DNA of 64,000 nt from a phage: the sequence record NC_129898.1; one strand, 5' to 3'. The notes under the pieces were generated by a model. It was not told where the DNA came from, ran no database searches, and saw only the letters and a program-made list of their open reading frames with translations. A program made the position numbers and the translations under genes. Every line of letters starts with the position of its first letter. Within the stretch, counting starts at the first letter, position 1. Of this stretch, positions 2,829 to 56,530 are shown piece by piece.

Positions 2829-3187
2829 TACCGCACCTCCTCAATAACTTCCACATCTGAACCTACCACAAATGCAAAAGGGCAGGTTTCATGAAAGACA
2901 TCCGGATCGCCGCCAAGCTTGCTAACTATTTCTCCACCACTAATAAACACAAGCTCACCGATATTCATCAGATTGCTGAAATAGTATCCATAATGATTAA
3001 AGAATGCAGCAGGGTCAGGCAGACTGGTAGCCTCAAGCTCTACATCGGTTGAGATTACTTTCTTATCATACCCTCTGGCCTTTTGAGATGCAAGATCTGC
3101 AGAATCCTCAGGCGACCGGAGATGCACAGGAATTGTTTCACCAATAAAGCGTACTTTCATATTCTCACCCAACAACCATAGCTTCAA
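2828..3187 (-). CDS. hypothetical protein (VEIVE-tail family)
   Basis: 119 aa; contains MKVRFIGE and C-terminal DVEVIEEVR. Confidence 0.5.
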   Translation of the reverse strand: MKLWLLGENMKVRFIGETIPVHLRSPEDSADLASQKARGYDKKVISTDVELEATSLPDPAAFFNHYGYYFSNLMNIGELVFISGGEIVSKLGGDPDVFHETCPFAFVVGSDVEVIEEVR

Positions 3188-3428
3188 AAGGGGTCATAAA
3201 CGAATAAACAGCATTATCATCTGCTTCAGGAAATGCCCCCAAAGACTTCATGTCTGAGCCCTTGACAAATACAAGGTTCTGATCAAAAGCTTCTTGTGGA
3301 TCAATCCGATACATATTTCGTAGGGTATCACTTACCTCCTCATCAAGAGGTGAGTATGCTGTGCACGTTTTTCCGATCAAGCTTTGAGAATCAGGATATC
3401 CACCTGAAGTTTTAAAATAAACAATCAT
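3165..3428 (-). CDS. hypothetical protein
   Basis: 87-aa ORF, co-oriented. Confidence 0.45.
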   Translation of the reverse strand: MIVYFKTSGGYPDSQSLIGKTCTAYSPLDEEVSDTLRNMYRIDPQEAFDQNLVFVKGSDMKSLGAFPEADDNAVYSFMTPFEAMVVG

Positions 3429-51379: not shown

Positions 51380-52756
51380 ATGCCATATTTAGATAAAGTG
51401 GTAGATGTTACAGTTAACCTCGGAACCCAGCCTATTGACACTGTAGGTTTCGAAACTCCGCTGTTCATCGCTATCCACAACAACTTCACTGAGCGAGCTC
51501 GCGTATATGCGGAGCTGGATCAGATGGTGGAAGACGGTTTCGCACAAGGCTCTGCAGCTTATGAGTTTGCAGCAAAAGCTTTCGGCGGTGTATTCCCTCC
51601 GCAGTATGTTATGATCGGCAGACAGGCAAAAGAAAAAACCACTGTAGATTTTAAAGGTATTGCTGCCGCAGCTGATACTGATGTCGTAATGACTATTGCA
51701 AAAGGTAGCTACAATACTTCTCTGATAGTGCCTATCTCTGGTGGAACAGGTGCAACTCAGATTGCAGAGTCAATGAAGACTAAAATTGAAGCAGATGATA
51801 GCTTGAACGATATCACTGTAGCGGCTGAAGACGGTGTTCTCACCATCACGGGTGACTGTACTGTTGGTTATCATACTGGTAACTATACAATCAAAAATAT
51901 CGCCAATGCTGAAAAACCTTCTACAGTAGTTGATAAGATCAATGCTGAGCGTGACAATTGGTACTTCCTGTGCCATGAAGACCACACCGACATTGAAGCA
52001 TGTGCTAAGTGGGCTCAGGCTAACTACAAGCTGCATGTCTACTCTACTGCAGAAGATGTGACTGGTAAAGATAATAACATCGCCACCAAACTAATGGCTG
52101 CACAATATGACAGTGTTGGCATGTACGATCCTCGTGCAGATAAGGACTTCCCGGAGGGTGGTATCATAGGTGCTATGGCATCCAACGATCCGTCCTATGG
52201 TGACAGTTTGCACTTAAAACAGATGCCGGGTGTGATTGCACCATCTTTGACTTTAACTCAGCGTATGGCGATTTGGGAAAACCACGTTAACTTCTATAGA
52301 ATGATTAACGGTGTCGGCGCTTTCTGGGAAGGTAAGTGTGCTTCAGGTCAGTATGCAGACGCTATTCGTTTTGCACACTGGATCAAGTTCAGATCTGAAG
52401 AATCCATGTTCGGGTACATGCATCGCCGCTCCAATATGGGTTTAAGCATGAAGATGTCTGATGATGATCTTCCGGTTATCAAGTCTGTTCTGATGAACAA
52501 CCCGATCAATACTGGCATTAAGAATGGTGCGATCCTGACAGGTTTTGACGAAGACAACAATGTGTTCTACGACCCGATCATCACAGTTCCTAAACGTGCA
52601 GAAATCCCAACCAATCAGTTGGCTGCTCGTGTTCTGGAAGGTGTGAAAGTAGAACTGGTGTATAACAACGCCCTGCACTTCGTTCGTATCCGGATCAACG
52701 TCCTCCTGGACAAAGTTGGTTCTAAATCCACCAATGCTGTTGCAATGACTGAATAA
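51380..52756 (+). CDS. tail sheath protein candidate
   Basis: 458-aa ORF directly upstream of a ~157-aa tube-sized ORF, chaperone and tape measure; biased codon usage. Confidence 0.55.
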   Translation: MPYLDKVVDVTVNLGTQPIDTVGFETPLFIAIHNNFTERARVYAELDQMVEDGFAQGSAAYEFAAKAFGGVFPPQYVMIGRQAKEKTTVDFKGIAAAADTDVVMTIAKGSYNTSLIVPISGGTGATQIAESMKTKIEADDSLNDITVAAEDGVLTITGDCTVGYHTGNYTIKNIANAEKPSTVVDKINAERDNWYFLCHEDHTDIEACAKWAQANYKLHVYSTAEDVTGKDNNIATKLMAAQYDSVGMYDPRADKDFPEGGIIGAMASNDPSYGDSLHLKQMPGVIAPSLTLTQRMAIWENHVNFYRMINGVGAFWEGKCASGQYADAIRFAHWIKFRSEESMFGYMHRRSNMGLSMKMSDDDLPVIKSVLMNNPINTGIKNGAILTGFDEDNNVFYDPIITVPKRAEIPTNQLAARVLEGVKVELVYNNALHFVRIRINVLLDKVGSKSTNAVAMTE

Positions 52757-52766
52757 GGAAGACTAG

Positions 52767-53240
52767 ATGGAAACTCAAATTTTAACTCCTTATGCATATG
52801 ACCCTAAAAAGGTCAAACTGTATCTGATGCAGCAGCGTGTCACTGGCTTCGCTGCTGACACCAAGATCGTTGTTTCAAGAAACGAAGACAACATCTACCC
52901 TCACGTCGGTGTGGATGGTGAAATGTCTGCAGCTCTGTCTCGTAACCAATCTGGTGTTATGACTGTGTCCTTGCAGAACACTTCTGTATGGAACGCTTAC
53001 CTTTCTGACTGGCAGAAACAGGCATCTATTACTGGTCTGGTATTCTTCCCGGTTCTGCTGGAAGGTAGCCAAGGTCCTGGTATTTCTACAATCGGTTGGA
53101 TCCAGAAACAGCCTGACCTGACTTATGGAACCGAAGTAGGTCAACTGGACTGGGATATCGGTATTCTGGATGCATGGCTCAACCGTGACAACATCACTGG
53201 TGCTCTCACTGGCCTCGCAGGTCTTGCAGGTATTATCTAA
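52767..53240 (+). CDS. tail tube protein candidate
   Basis: 157 aa between sheath-sized and chaperone ORFs; followed by a strong terminator. Confidence 0.55.
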   Translation: METQILTPYAYDPKKVKLYLMQQRVTGFAADTKIVVSRNEDNIYPHVGVDGEMSAALSRNQSGVMTVSLQNTSVWNAYLSDWQKQASITGLVFFPVLLEGSQGPGISTIGWIQKQPDLTYGTEVGQLDWDIGILDAWLNRDNITGALTGLAGLAGII

Positions 53241-53258
53241 GGGCACACTTTAGCATAG

Positions 53259-53290
53259 GCCTCACCTTCGGGTGGGGCTTTTTGCTTTTA
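53259..53290 (+). terminator. intrinsic terminator
   Basis: GCCTCACC-TTCG-GGTGGGGC followed by TTTTTGCTTTTA. Confidence 0.8.
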
Positions 53291-53402
53291 TGGTTTTGAC
53301 ACACGCTCTTGAATTGCTTGAAAGGTTAAATTGACAATGCACCGTAATCATGGTAAAATACACAAATATGGTGCACAACATGACTAATAAGGATGCTATA
53401 AA

Positions 53403-53876
53403 ATGGCTATAAACTTTAGACCTACAACAGAGATTGATTTAGCAGGGCACAACTTTGTGATCACCCACTGGGGTCCGATGAAAGCAATGAAAAACATGCC
53501 TAAAATCGGTAAGATTGTGGCTGTCCCGCTAGGTGCTATCGGTGGATCTATTCTCTCAGGCGGTCAGAATATGGCAGAGGTCCTTCCTACAGCCCTGGCT
53601 TACCTGTTCCAAGAACTTGATGATAACTCTATTGAAGAGTTATTTAAAATCTTGTTCGAAGATATTACCGTGGATGGTGTGGATAAGCTTAACCCTGATG
53701 TTGTGTTTGCAGGGCATCTGCTGGAGATGATTAAGCTGGCAGGTAAGGTTCTGGAGGTTAACTACGGCTGTTTTTTCACACAAGACGGTTTAGGAAGCCT
53801 TCTGGAGATGTTACAGCAGATGGGTATGATTCAGCAGGTGAACAATCTGGATCAGACTCCGGAAGAGCAGGAATAA
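53403..53876 (+). CDS. tail assembly chaperone (gpG-like)
   Basis: 157 aa upstream of tape measure; contains in-frame slippery heptamer T TTT TTC at 53771-53777. Confidence 0.55.
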   Translation: MAINFRPTTEIDLAGHNFVITHWGPMKAMKNMPKIGKIVAVPLGAIGGSILSGGQNMAEVLPTALAYLFQELDDNSIEELFKILFEDITVDGVDKLNPDVVFAGHLLEMIKLAGKVLEVNYGCFFTQDGLGSLLEMLQQMGMIQQVNNLDQTPEEQE

Positions 53877-54136
53877 GCAAGGTTGTTGTGAGGGCCAGTG
53901 AGTGGGCAGCCAAGAACAGTTCACTCAACTGGTTCGACTTTCTTTGGTGCAGGGTGCTCAAGAATTTCAAAGGGGAAAATTTTGAATCGCTAAATCTTGC
54001 AGATATGGCGTATTTCCTGAAGCTCTGTGAGTATCTTGATATCGAAGAATTCCTAGATACCGTCCAAAACAGGGAAATGGAGCGGGAGCAGAAGGCTGCC
54101 GCAGCTGCTGCGAAAGCTAAACGCAGGAGAGGATAA
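53777..54136 (+). CDS. tail assembly chaperone -1 frameshift extension (gpGT-like)
   Basis: The -1 frame is open from the slippery site through 54136. Confidence 0.5.
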   Translation, partial: HTRRFRKPSGDVTADGYDSAGEQSGSDSGRAGISKVVVRASEWAAKNSSLNWFDFLWCRVLKNFKGENFESLNLADMAYFLKLCEYLDIEEFLDTVQNREMEREQKAAAAAAKAKRRRG

Positions 54137-54141
54137 TCTAA

Positions 54142-54180
54142 GGGCCGGATTCCTTTTCTGGGATCTGGCCCTTTTTATTA
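54142..54180 (+). terminator. intrinsic terminator
   Basis: GGGCCGGAT...ATCTGGCCC hairpin followed by TTTTTATTA. Confidence 0.7.
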
Positions 54181-54190
54181 TGAGGAAAGC

Positions 54191-56530
54191 ATGGCTACAA
54201 ACAAAATAGTTGCCACAACAGTCAACAAGATTGGCTTTGAGATAGAGAACTCCTCCTACAAAAAAGCTGTAGAGAAAATTCGCAGTATTGGGAGGGAGTT
54301 CAGGAAACTGGGCGAGGATTTTAACTCAGCCAACCCAATGAGTAGATGGCAGGCAGTGGCTGTTAAAACCCAGCAAACAATGCAGCGGGTTGCCAGACAG
54401 CAATCTCAGGCAAATGCTAAACTTCACAGGGAGAGCGTAGCACAAGCCAAGAAAGAGGCTGCAGTAAGGGCTGCAATAGAACGTAGGGAAAACGCAAGAC
54501 GTAAACAGGCTGTAGGTAATCTTACCGCTAAAAATCCAGAAATGGCCAGGATGCGTAAGTTCTACCAGCAGCAAGCTAAAGAGGCCAAAAAGGCTGCCAA
54601 ATCTACACCAGTGTCTTACGGCGGTTATAAGGCACCAAAGGCAAGAGTTTTGGCTAATGCCAAATCTTTCAAGTATATCCCAGGTAACCCTAATATGGGT
54701 GGTGTGGCTTCCGACCCTAACCTTGTGAAAGCTCAGACAGCCGCTATGAATCGTTATCATAGACAGCTAAGAAGAGACAGTAAAGCTGGTATGGATAATA
54801 AGCTTATGTCTGATCGTGAGGCAAGGAGAACCCACCTCTACAACTCTGCGATAAGACTTTCTGCCAAGTATGGGGCCGGATTCCGTGGAAGCTTGGCAGG
54901 ATACTCAGAGTTAGAGTCCAGGTTTGCTCGCGGGGAGATGAAAAAGTCAACCTTTAACGCCCACCTGTCAGCTCTGCAGTCTGGATTTAAAAGCGCCACC
55001 AGCCAAACGCTTACACTAGGTGATGCCATGAGGGACTTACGTAGGTCTGTTATTAATGCAACAGCTGCGTATACTGCTTTCTCTGGATTTACTGCTGTGA
55101 ACAGATCTGGTCACATGATGGAGGGGGCAAGTGCTGCTCTTACTGCTGTTACTGGAGATCCAAACAAAGCCAACAGTGAGGTTGCGTTTGTCCAGCAAGA
55201 GGCTATGCGTCTTGGTTTTGATCTCAAATCTGGTCTTCAAGGTTACGCCCAGATGGCGGTAAACGCCAAAAACCAGATGACAAATCAAGAGGTGCATGAG
55301 CTATTCTCTGCATACTCACAGTATGCTGCTGCTTACGGTGCCGATGAGGTAAAATACCAGCGTGGCATCATGGCAATCCAGCAAATGCTCGGTAAAGGAC
55401 AGGTAATGTCCGAAGAACTGAAGCAACAACTTGCTGAAGCATTGCCTGGTGCATACGAACCTTTTATCAAAGCCACCAAAGAGGCTTTTGGTCTTTCTGA
55501 ACTATCCATGGATCAGTTCATGGACATGATGAAGAAAGGTGAGGTTAAAACAGCCAAGATCATGAAGTATGTGGCTAAGTACATGAACGAGGCATCTGCA
55601 GCTGGTTATGAAAGAATGCAGAAGTCTAACGTACTGGCAGAAAACAGGCTGAAAACCTTCATCGAACTATCTCGTCAGAAGCTGTTCACCCGTTGGGCTG
55701 ATGAATTAACAGAGTTCTATTATACACTGATTCGCACAGGTGAGACTTTGCAATTTGTGTGGGATGCCTCTGGTGATTTTGTTAGCGGGTTTGTGAGAGG
55801 CCTCAACTGGGTAGTTGGTGAACTAAACAATACCATAGTCAAGATCCGCATGTTTTTCCTTGAATGGGGGATTAAATGGGGATTCATAACAGCTAAGACG
55901 AAGGAATATTCTGAAGAGCTTAATGACACCTTTAGCTATGCTAAATGGGCAGGGTTTGCTGCTGCCATCATGCTGGTAGTGAACGCCCTGACAAAAGGTT
56001 TTGTCATGGCATCTATGCTTGTAAAAACCTTCAAATTCCTTAGTTCTATAAGAGGCGCAGCTGGAGCAGCAGGTGCAGGTGCAGCTACCACAGAAGGATC
56101 TGGTGGTGGTGCGGCAGGAAAAGGGGGAGGTGGCCTCAAGACACCTGGCGGTAAAGTTGGCCTGCTTGGGAAGCTTGGTATTATCGGTACAATATTAAGT
56201 GCCGGGGAGTTATTTAATGACCGTTTCAACCCGCTGAGTGAGAGAAATCAGCAACTGGATACTATCAGCGATATGATTCGCAAAGATATCATATCGGGAG
56301 GTAACGGGTTTGTTGATCCTTTGGACACCTTACCGGGAGGGACTCTTCCGTTGCCGGGTGGTCCTGGTTTTGCTTCTCAATTAAGAACTATGGAAATGCT
56401 ACCTTTAGAGATCAGTGATGGCAAAATCACGATTTCAATAGATGAGGGGGAGTTTAGCAAAATACTTGATGCAAAACTTGAGTGGGAGAATAACAAAGAT
56501 ATTAACTTTATGTCAACAGATCTTTGGTAA
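54191..56530 (+). CDS. tail tape measure protein
   Basis: 779 aa, Ala/Gln/Lys-rich helical N-terminal half, hydrophobic segment and Gly-rich tract (GAAGAAGAGAATTEGSGGGAAGKGGGG); follows the chaperone pair. Confidence 0.75.
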   Translation: MATNKIVATTVNKIGFEIENSSYKKAVEKIRSIGREFRKLGEDFNSANPMSRWQAVAVKTQQTMQRVARQQSQANAKLHRESVAQAKKEAAVRAAIERRENARRKQAVGNLTAKNPEMARMRKFYQQQAKEAKKAAKSTPVSYGGYKAPKARVLANAKSFKYIPGNPNMGGVASDPNLVKAQTAAMNRYHRQLRRDSKAGMDNKLMSDREARRTHLYNSAIRLSAKYGAGFRGSLAGYSELESRFARGEMKKSTFNAHLSALQSGFKSATSQTLTLGDAMRDLRRSVINATAAYTAFSGFTAVNRSGHMMEGASAALTAVTGDPNKANSEVAFVQQEAMRLGFDLKSGLQGYAQMAVNAKNQMTNQEVHELFSAYSQYAAAYGADEVKYQRGIMAIQQMLGKGQVMSEELKQQLAEALPGAYEPFIKATKEAFGLSELSMDQFMDMMKKGEVKTAKIMKYVAKYMNEASAAGYERMQKSNVLAENRLKTFIELSRQKLFTRWADELTEFYYTLIRTGETLQFVWDASGDFVSGFVRGLNWVVGELNNTIVKIRMFFLEWGIKWGFITAKTKEYSEELNDTFSYAKWAGFAAAIMLVVNALTKGFVMASMLVKTFKFLSSIRGAAGAAGAGAATTEGSGGGAAGKGGGGLKTPGGKVGLLGKLGIIGTILSAGELFNDRFNPLSERNQQLDTISDMIRKDIISGGNGFVDPLDTLPGGTLPLPGGPGFASQLRTMEMLPLEISDGKITISIDEGEFSKILDAKLEWENNKDINFMSTDLW

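What the first reader, a model, noticed from the sequence alone, without database searches (positions are those of the whole stretch)
53403..54136. Programmed -1 ribosomal frameshift in the tail assembly chaperone
The slippery heptamer T TTT TTC (53771-53777) is in the X XXY YYZ register of the 53403..53876 frame, and the -1 frame is open from that point through 54136, directly upstream of the tape measure gene. This is the conserved two-product chaperone arrangement of long-tailed phages.
Basis: partly seen in the sequence, partly recalled or inferred. Interest (0 to 1): 0.55.

Follow-up and report, generated by a model that had tools for sequence, protein, structure and literature searches.

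The report
Frameshifted tail chaperone of rV5-like phage
An rV5-like E. coli phage almost certainly makes a short and a long form of its tail assembly chaperone by a ribosome slip at UUUUUUC; this is a textbook phage trick, well supported here by comparison, but none of the public records examined annotates it.

Summary
T TTT TTC (53771-53777) is in X XXY YYZ register of the 157-aa ORF 53403..53876. That ORF is a Pfam PF21822 / phrog_3840 tail assembly chaperone (TAC). The -1 frame is open from 53762 to 54136, ending 54 nt before the tape measure gene.

The window is a Vequintavirus, 99.4% identical to phage FV3. Comparison supports a programmed -1 ribosomal frameshift:
- The heptamer and a 110-141-codon open -1 frame are kept in every relative with this TAC, down to 28% TAC identity. 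Two distant phages have G GGA AAG or A AAT TTT at or near that position instead.
- No start codon for the downstream ORF is conserved. In Klebsiella and Erwinia phages the first one lies about 45 residues inside the conserved domain.
- Synonymous sites are unusually conserved at the site.
- The -1 frame shows a coding-type substitution pattern.

No 3' stimulatory RNA structure exists. Predicted products are G (157 aa) and GT (244 aa, join 53403..53777,53777..54136).

None of the GenBank records inspected annotates the shift, and I found no paper reporting it for rV5-like phages. Sister clades were described in December 2025. Verdict: a real feature and a new member of a well-known kind, of modest interest, mainly for annotation. 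Translation of GT itself is inferred, not shown.

The parts
53403..53876 (+). Zero-frame tail assembly chaperone ORF (G, or TAC-N), 157 aa
   Evidence: PF21822 Phage_TAC_15 E 1.1e-23 (84.5 bits, cut-off 22); phrog_3840 'tail assembly chaperone' E 6e-69
53771..53777 (+). Slippery heptamer T TTT TTC in X XXY YYZ register (tRNA-Phe in both P and A sites)
   Evidence: Invariant in every Vequintavirinae, Stephanstirmvirinae and Aeromonas relative examined and in 38 IMG/VR loci. It is the only in-register heptamer in this ORF.
53777..54136 (+). -1 frame extension read after the slip (119 aa plus stop). The GT product is join(53403..53777,53777..54136), 244 aa.
   Evidence: The frame is open in all relatives (110-141 codons).
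53778..53876 (+). Dual-coding overlap of 33 codons. The zero frame gives the conserved C-terminus of G. The -1 frame gives a basic RRFRK start followed by a Gly/Ser/Asp-rich, length-variable linker.
   Evidence: Alignments. Synonymous resampling of this stretch keeps the -1 frame open in only 16% of trials.
53879..54133 (+). Conserved -1-frame C-terminal domain (T domain), currently annotated as a separate 82-aa hypothetical protein starting at GTG 53888
   Evidence: phrog_10409 E 9.5e-51. Nucleotide differences of 18/15/56 at codon positions 1/2/3 against L027. Conserved motif KNSSLxWFDYLWCR.
53753..53757 (+). Shine-Dalgarno-like GGAGG 13 nt upstream of the heptamer; a possible 5' stimulator, not established
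   Evidence: GGAGG, GGAG or GAGG in 19 of 24 distinct contexts. It also encodes the conserved Leu-Glu-Val, so the two constraints cannot be separated.
53331..53359 (+). Sigma-70-like promoter TTGACA-17-TAAAAT (TG-extended) directly upstream of the chaperone gene
   Evidence: 11 of 12 matches. Not found at the same place in PVP-SE1 or a Klebsiella relative.
54140..54173 (+). Intrinsic-terminator-like hairpin (14 bp plus T tract), 4 nt after the -1 frame stop and before the tape measure start
   Evidence: A hairpin at the same place, with a partly different stem sequence, is found in PVP-SE1 and a Klebsiella phage.
54191..56530 (+). Tape measure protein gene (context; the presumed client of the chaperone)
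   Evidence: PF20155 TMP_3 E 4e-18; phrog_5255 E 0
52767..53240 (+). Tail tube gene (context)
   Evidence: PF11681 KPP10_Orf10 E 7e-9; phrog_280; named tail tube protein in several records
51380..52756 (+). Tail sheath gene (context)
   Evidence: phrog_205 tail sheath E 7e-118; PF11863

Best explanation
This is a programmed -1 ribosomal frameshift in the tail assembly chaperone gene of an rV5-like myovirus. Most ribosomes read 53403..53876 and make the 157-aa chaperone G. A minority slip while tRNA-Phe occupies both the P site (UUU) and the A site (UUC) of U UUU UUC. Both tRNAs re-pair one base back on UUU UUU, and reading resumes at C53777 in the -1 frame. This gives a 244-aa GT protein: the first 125 residues of G, a basic and Gly/Ser-rich linker, and an about 85-residue helical C-terminal domain. 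By analogy with lambda gpG/gpGT and P2 gpE/gpE+E', G and the G part of GT coat the tape measure protein. The rarer T domain would recruit the tube protein, and neither protein ends up in the virion. Shown here: the site, its register, the open frame, TAC homology, and the conservation pattern in both frames. Inferred: that the slip occurs, that it is ribosomal, that its efficiency is a few per cent, and what the proteins do.
For: (1) Site and frame geometry are as described, and the site is a unique outlier among 55 in-register heptamers in the window.
(2) The ORF is a TAC (PF21822, phrog_3840) lying between tube and tape measure genes.
(3) T TTT TTC and an open -1 frame of 119-141 codons are kept in 10 GenBank relatives from 5 Vequintavirinae genera at about 65% nucleotide identity. 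They are also kept in Certrevirus, Phapecoctavirus, Justusliebigvirus and Aeromonas phages at 28-42% TAC identity, and in 38 IMG/VR loci with 24 distinct sequences.
(4) The slip site is replaced while the arrangement is kept: G GGA AAG in Rheinheimera Barba5A and A AAT TTT in Vibrio PWH3a-P1.
(5) In locus L031 the -1 frame opens exactly at the heptamer.
(6) No start codon is conserved. In Mydovirus and in Hena1 the first ATG/GTG/TTG after the slip site lies about 45 residues inside the conserved domain. Database gene calls for this ORF have ragged N-termini of 43-102 aa, and GenBank calls vary between 132 and 267 nt or are absent.
(7) Identical-codon use among identical residues peaks at 0.77-0.90 around residues 122-128, against 0.31-0.61 upstream.
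(8) Synonymous resampling leaves the overlap open in the -1 frame in only 1-32% of trials for 12 of 13 genomes, yet it is open in all 13.
(9) The -1 frame beyond the G stop shows third-position-biased substitution, 18/15/56, and matches phrog_10409.
(10) UUY A-site codons and all-pyrimidine heptamers are among the more shift-prone classes in E. coli (PMC4066793).
(11) The arrangement is the conserved G/GT one of long-tailed phages (PMC5009743).
Against: No fusion protein has been observed. I found no proteomic or reporter data for this group. No 3' stimulatory structure exists: the 100 nt after the site give z = -1.05, and 70-nt segments in 11 phages give z from -1.3 to +1.5, mostly positive, with only a weak 7-bp hairpin in the consensus fold. 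Efficiency may therefore be low. In this window a GTG (53888) with AAGG 5 nt upstream could start the downstream ORF independently. No natural in-frame G-T fusion was found among 1.84 billion representative proteins. The relatives are phylogenetically related, so the conservation statistics overstate independence. The IMG/VR loci were retrieved with a peptide pattern that lies just upstream of the site.
Confidence: 0.87

Rival explanations
1. There are two separate genes, as annotated in GenBank. The downstream ORF would be translated on its own from GTG 53888, possibly by termination-reinitiation after the G stop 12 nt upstream. This would give a free 82-aa protein, and the heptamer would be incidental.
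For: GTG 53888 is preceded by AAGG at a 5-nt spacing. Every record inspected annotates a separate hypothetical protein or nothing. phrog_10409 is built on such 82-aa calls.
Against: That start is not conserved. Klebsiella Mydovirus and Erwinia Hena1 have no ATG/GTG/TTG until about 45 residues into the conserved domain. This reading does not explain the invariant heptamer, the absence of -1 stops through 19-36 overlap codons in 13 of 13 lineages, the peak of synonymous conservation at the site, or the replacement by other canonical heptamers. It could still co-occur as a minor route in this phage.
Confidence: 0.07
2. The shift comes from transcriptional slippage. RNA polymerase would add or drop a U on the T6 run, making a subpopulation of mRNAs in which G and T are in one frame. 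The two products would be the same but the mechanism different.
For: The site is a homopolymer run. Related Vandenendeviridae-type phages (Herod, KIL3b) carry the T run out of X XXY YYZ register. [quoted passage not shown]
Against: Six T is shorter than the runs of about 8-9 that I recall as the usual requirement for productive slippage by bacterial RNA polymerase (from memory, not checked here). The run is in exact tandem-slippage register in all 24 or more distinct sequences of this TAC family. Barba5A (G GGA AAG) and PWH3a-P1 (A AAT TTT) have heteropolymeric heptamers that suit tRNA re-pairing but not polymerase slippage.
Confidence: 0.04
3. There is no recoding. Either a homopolymer sequencing or assembly error splits one long chaperone gene, or the -1 ORF is a non-functional open frame present by chance.
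For: Homopolymer runs are error-prone in some sequencing chemistries.
Against: The same run length occurs in 188 independently sequenced records that match the region and in metagenomic contigs. The zero-frame tail after the site (TKDGFxxLxxLL...HQVNxxDQ) is itself conserved as protein, so G really ends at 53876. The -1 ORF is under purifying selection.
Confidence: 0.01

Closest known systems
Phage lambda gpG / gpGT (Levin, Hendrix & Casjens 1993; Xu, Hendrix & Duda 2004, 2013, 2014, as summarised in PMC5009743)
   Same: Two overlapping ORFs lie immediately upstream of the tape measure gene. [quoted passage not shown] No strong 3' RNA structure is needed (from memory for lambda).
   Different: The heptamer is U UUU UUC rather than G GGA AAG. 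The phage is a large contractile-tailed virus (sheath plus tube) rather than a siphovirus. The chaperone belongs to another Pfam family (PF21822), with no detectable sequence similarity to gpG tested here. The overlap after the slip is long (33 codons).
Phage P2 gpE / gpE+E' (Christie et al. 2002; the slip site T TTT TTG is from memory; efficiency 2-3 fold above lambda per PMC5009743)
   Same: It is a myovirus with an all-U-type heptamer decoded by tRNA-Phe, placed upstream of the tape measure gene.
   Different: The A-site codon is UUC here rather than UUG. The proteins are not detectably homologous by the searches run. P2 is a small temperate phage, whereas this is a 137-kb lytic phage.
TAC-N / TAC-NC locus of Vandenendeviridae (Pakpunavirus Adele) and Andersonviridae (PMC12846349, December 2025)
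   Same: The tail module is related (KPP10_Orf10-type tube). The downstream 'hypothetical protein' is reinterpreted as the C-terminal part of a -1 frameshift product. The motif is T-rich (GTTTTT), and the argument from an uninterrupted -1 frame is the same as the one made here.
   Different: That paper did not analyse the Vequintavirinae chaperone locus. In the two phages of that type examined here (Herod, KIL3b) the T run is not in canonical X XXY YYZ register. In the rV5 group it always is.
E. coli dnaX and IS3/IS911-type -1 frameshift cassettes
   Same: A heptamer is decoded by tandem slippage in E. coli. An SD-like GGAGG lies 13 nt upstream, within the 9-14 nt range reported for 5' stimulators (PMC5009743).
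   Different: There is no 3' hairpin or pseudoknot. The SD-like element is confounded with conserved Leu-Glu-Val codons. The expected efficiency is far below the roughly 50% of dnaX.

Membership tests
Long-tailed-phage tail assembly chaperone with -1 programmed frameshift (lambda G/GT type) | Gene pair located between the tail tube (major tail) gene and the tape measure gene | tested here: met
   Order is sheath 51380-52756, tube 52767-53240, G 53403-53876, T up to 54136, tape measure 54191-56530
Long-tailed-phage tail assembly chaperone with -1 programmed frameshift (lambda G/GT type) | Second ORF overlaps the 3' end of the first in the -1 frame and lacks a conserved initiation site of its own | tested here: met
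   overlap of 33 codons after the slip site; no conserved start, and none before residue ~45 of the domain in Mydovirus and Hena1
Long-tailed-phage tail assembly chaperone with -1 programmed frameshift (lambda G/GT type) | X XXY YYZ slippery heptamer in zero-frame register inside the overlap | tested here: met
   T TTT TTC at 53771-53777; the only such site in the ORF
Long-tailed-phage tail assembly chaperone with -1 programmed frameshift (lambda G/GT type) | Arrangement conserved in relatives despite sequence divergence | tested here: met
   including heptamer replacement in Barba5A and PWH3a-P1
Long-tailed-phage tail assembly chaperone with -1 programmed frameshift (lambda G/GT type) | Both G and GT proteins are made, GT as a minor fraction, and both are needed for tail assembly | not testable with these tools
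   Needs a western blot, mass spectrometry, a reporter assay or genetics
Long-tailed-phage tail assembly chaperone with -1 programmed frameshift (lambda G/GT type) | The G part binds the tape measure protein and the T part binds the tube protein | not testable with these tools
   The T-domain model was too poor to use (pLDDT 53.5). There are no PDB relatives by sequence.
Pfam PF21822 Phage_TAC_15 | Whole-protein score above the curated gathering threshold | tested here: met
   84.5 bits against a cut-off of 22; residues 15-129 cover profile positions 2-125 of 127
Structure-stimulated -1 PRF cassettes (IS3/IS911, dnaX, coronavirus type) | Stable hairpin or pseudoknot 5-9 nt 3' of the heptamer | tested here: not met
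   z-scores -1.05 (100 nt) and +0.69 (70 nt) in the window; 10 relatives between -1.3 and +1.5; the consensus fold is -7 kcal/mol with a weak 7-bp hairpin only. Pseudoknots were not searched explicitly.
SD-stimulated -1 PRF (dnaX type) | Shine-Dalgarno-like sequence 9-14 nt 5' of the shift site, conserved beyond coding need | tested here: inconclusive
   GGAGG lies 13 nt upstream. GGAG, GAGG or GGAGG occurs in 19 of 24 contexts, and GAG is used even where GAA dominates. The element also encodes the conserved L-E-V.
Transcriptional slippage sites | Homopolymer run long enough for RNA polymerase realignment (about 8-9 or more A/T in bacteria, from memory) | tested here: not met
   The run is T6. 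Two lineages use heteropolymeric heptamers instead.

The most novel reading that the evidence does not exclude
The shift may be driven by an unusual, structure-free signal that is older than the slip site itself. The region lacks any 3' RNA structure. Yet the flanks of the site, an SD-like GAGG about 10-13 nt upstream and the string CGGTTYCG 5-8 nt downstream (encoding RFR in the -1 frame), are conserved. The downstream string also occurs in Vandenendeviridae-type phages whose chaperones did not come up in the TAC protein search and whose T run is in a different register. That would point to a primary-sequence or nascent-peptide stimulator. Together with the conserved terminator placed right after the -1 stop, it could set the G:GT:tape-measure stoichiometry in this large group of myoviruses.
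Probability: 0.12. Interest if true: 0.5.

Novelty: new member of a known kind. Interest (0 to 1): 0.3.

Why it matters
The main value is for annotation. At least 356 phage records carry this T domain, including widely used therapeutic and biocontrol phages of the rV5, PVP-SE1, phi92 and phAPEC8 types. All records examined list it as a stray 'hypothetical protein' with an arbitrary start, or not at all. The correct annotation is a joined CDS with ribosomal slippage. The finding also extends the G/GT rule to another large clade of contractile-tailed phages. It supplies a set of homologous loci in which the heptamer changed (U UUU UUC, G GGA AAG, A AAT TTT) while the flanks stayed. Such a set is useful for studying structure-independent frameshift signals. 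It does not change understanding of the mechanism.

Tried and rejected
- A search for natural in-frame G-T fusions or better T-domain homologues gave 2 hits in the word-indexed search and 20 in the exhaustive HMMER search. The convincing hits were short fragments of 43-102 aa. The long hits (P0008 checked) look like unrelated repeat proteins.
- The -1 product alone gave pLDDT 53.5. That is too poor for a fold search, so none was run. It only suggests a disordered first ~31 residues and a helical C-terminal part.
- PDB sequence searches for G and T found nothing significant.
- Stop-codon read-through and a +1 shift are rejected. The zero frame hits TGA four codons after TAA, and the +1 frame is open for only 19 codons.
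- Literature searches for a frameshift report in rV5, Vequintavirinae or rV5-like phages found none. The Virology 2022 paper on T4-like TACs is not held.

Full report
**What is in the sequence**

The ORF 53403..53876 (157 aa) contains the codons TGT TTT TTC (C123 F124 F125). The heptamer T TTT TTC at 53771-53777 is therefore in exact X XXY YYZ register. In the -1 frame a TAA lies at 53759-53761. The frame is then open from 53762 to the stop at 54134-54136.

A -1 slip on the heptamer would resume at C53777. It would yield join(53403..53777,53777..54136), that is 125 + 119 = 244 aa. The +1 frame is closed (19 codons), and the zero frame meets a second stop four codons after its TAA, so neither a +1 shift nor read-through is an option.

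ORFs of at least 100 aa on both strands of the window hold 55 in-register X XXY YYZ heptamers. This one is followed by 119 open -1 codons, and the runner-up by 37.

**What the genes are**

- The window is a Vequintavirus, 99.4% identical over this kilobase to Escherichia phage FV3, with 117 records at 95% identity or more.
- The zero-frame ORF is a tail assembly chaperone: Pfam PF21822 Phage_TAC_15 with E 1e-23, and phrog_3840 with E 6e-69.
- The flanking genes are sheath (phrog_205), tube (PF11681, phrog_280) and tape measure (PF20155, phrog_5255).
- The part of the -1 ORF beyond the G stop matches phrog_10409. That is an 82-residue family of unknown function, built from stand-alone gene calls.

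**Comparative evidence**

I fetched the locus from 10 GenBank relatives in five Vequintavirinae genera, at about 65% nucleotide identity. In every one T TTT TTC is the only in-register slippery heptamer in the chaperone gene. It sits at the homologous ...NYGCFF... position, and the -1 frame is open from at most 12 codons upstream to about 50 nt before the tape measure gene.

The same holds at 28-42% chaperone identity in:
- Certrevirus PBES02;
- phAPEC8;
- two phi92-like phages;
- Aeromonas phage 4L372XY.

Rheinheimera phage Barba5A has G GGA AAG at the homologous place. Vibrio phage PWH3a-P1 has A AAT TTT at a comparable position near the 3' end of its chaperone gene. Both keep an open -1 frame of 126 codons. 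So the slip site was exchanged for other canonical heptamers while the architecture stayed.

A scan of IMG/VR gave 38 loci with 24 distinct sequences. All have the heptamer and a 110-136-codon -1 frame. In L031 the -1 frame opens exactly at the heptamer. One caveat applies: the peptide pattern used for that scan lies just upstream of the site, so retrieval is biased towards conserved flanks.

**Separate gene or frameshift extension?**

The annotated starts of the downstream ORF differ from record to record (249, 267, 243, 216, 156 or 132 nt, or none). When all ATG/GTG/TTG codons are mapped on an alignment of the -1 peptides, none is conserved near the start of the conserved domain (ISKVVxRAxxYAxKNSSLxWFDYLWCR...).

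In the Klebsiella Mydovirus phages and Erwinia Hena1 the first possible start is the M of ...SADM..., about 45 residues into that domain. The window's GTG 53888, with AAGG 5 nt upstream, is specific to the close rV5 group. An exhaustive HMMER search of 1.84 billion representative proteins returned only ragged fragments of 43-102 aa and no in-frame G-T fusion.

**Selection signatures**

- *Synonymous conservation.* Among pairs of sequences with the same residue, the fraction using the same codon is 0.31-0.61 along most of the gene. It rises to 0.77-0.90 in windows centred on residues 122-128, and rises again towards the end of the overlap.
- *Resampling.* I resampled synonymous codons for the observed zero-frame peptide of the overlap. 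The -1 frame stayed open in 1-32% of trials for 12 genomes and 71% for the shortest overlap. It is open in all 13 genomes. The product of these fractions overstates significance, because the genomes are related.
- *Substitution pattern.* Beyond the G stop, differences from a 77%-identical relative fall 18/15/56 on positions 1/2/3 of the -1 frame. That is a coding signature.
- *Zero-frame tail.* The zero-frame tail after the site is also conserved as protein. G therefore really ends at 53876, and a sequencing indel is excluded.

**Stimulators**

There is no convincing 3' structure. The 100 nt after the site fold no better than shuffles (z = -1.05). Seventy-nucleotide segments from 11 phages give z between -1.3 and +1.5, mostly positive. 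The consensus fold offers only a 7-bp imperfect hairpin of about -7 kcal/mol.

A GGAGG lies 13 nt upstream, within the 9-14 nt range given for 5' SD stimulators of -1 shifts (PMC5009743). GGAG, GAGG or GGAGG is present in 19 of 24 distinct contexts. It also encodes the conserved Leu-Glu-Val, so this element remains undecided.

U UUU UUC fits the rules for shift-prone heptamers in E. coli: a UUY A-site codon and an all-pyrimidine heptamer (PMC4066793). Without a strong stimulator the efficiency is probably a few per cent, as in lambda. That figure is an inference.

**Ribosomal or transcriptional?**

Three observations favour tRNA slippage over RNA polymerase slippage:
- the run is only six T long;
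- it is always in tandem-slippage register in this family;
- two lineages use heteropolymeric heptamers instead.

**Comparison with known systems**

This is the conserved G/GT arrangement of long-tailed phages (Xu, Hendrix & Duda 2004; reviewed in PMC5009743). Its closest mechanistic analogue among myoviruses is P2 E/E+E'. From memory, P2 uses T TTT TTG.

A December 2025 paper argued the same for the related Vandenendeviridae and Andersonviridae, with a GTTTTT motif (PMC12846349). It did not analyse the Vequintavirinae locus.

I found no report for rV5-like phages. None of the records inspected annotates a joined CDS.

**Verdict**

It is a new, unannotated member of a well-known kind. Interest is modest (0.3).

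Noticed in passing
window 54140-54173 (also L004 2248-2277, L002 2257-2286): A strong intrinsic-terminator-like hairpin (14 bp plus T tract) sits 4 nt after the -1 frame stop and just before the tape measure ATG. A hairpin at the same place, with a partly different stem sequence, occurs in PVP-SE1 and a Klebsiella phage. It suggests that the chaperone mRNA largely ends before the tape measure gene, which may set their ratio.
   Followed up: partly
window 53257-53280 and 53331-53359: A terminator follows the tube gene. A near-consensus TG-extended sigma-70 promoter (TTGACA-17-TAAAAT) then lies directly upstream of the chaperone gene, making G/GT look like a self-contained transcription unit. 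The promoter was not found at the same place in PVP-SE1 or a Klebsiella relative.
   Followed up: partly
window 53786-53793; equivalent positions in L002-L061, L022, L023: The string CGGTTYCG or AGGTTTCG lies 5-8 nt 3' of the slip site in 23 of 24 distinct contexts. It gives the -1 product a conserved basic start, RFR(R/K). It is also seen in Acinetobacter Herod and Pseudomonas KIL3b, whose chaperones did not come up in the TAC protein search. Whether the constraint is on a peptide or on RNA is unresolved.
   Followed up: partly
L022 5130-5200 (Acinetobacter phage Herod), L023 4700-4760 (Pseudomonas phage KIL3b): These Vandenendeviridae-type loci have an open -1 frame of 89-95 codons before the tape measure gene. 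Their T run is not in X XXY YYZ register (GAT GTT TTT TCC and TCG GTT TTT CAG). Their shift, if real, needs single-tRNA (P-site) slippage or another mechanism.
   Followed up: partly
L020 2919-3375 (deep-sea thermophilic phage D6E): Between the tube and tape measure genes the record annotates nothing. A TAC-like ORF (2919-3185) is followed by a second ORF (3166-3375) in the +1 frame, not the -1 frame.
   Followed up: no
L013 2319-3384 (Aeromonas 4L372XY), L014 2120-2758 (Rheinheimera Barba5A): An extra gene (annotated as endonuclease or DNA-binding protein, the latter on the opposite strand) is inserted between the T ORF and the tape measure gene. This breaks the usual adjacency without disturbing the G/T overlap.
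   Followed up: no
L012 1872-1881, L015, L016, L047-L061: Phapecoctavirus and phi92-like phages carry two overlapping in-register heptamers, C CCT TTT and T TTT TTC (CCCTTTTTTC). This gives two adjacent possible slip positions that would yield the same -1 frame.
   Followed up: no
and one search hit lists: About 20 records named 'Campylobacter phage' (MG0656xx, host C. jejuni) are 98% identical to this E. coli rV5-like phage over the region and carry no annotation. The host or name looks mislabelled, or a contaminant was sequenced.
   Followed up: no
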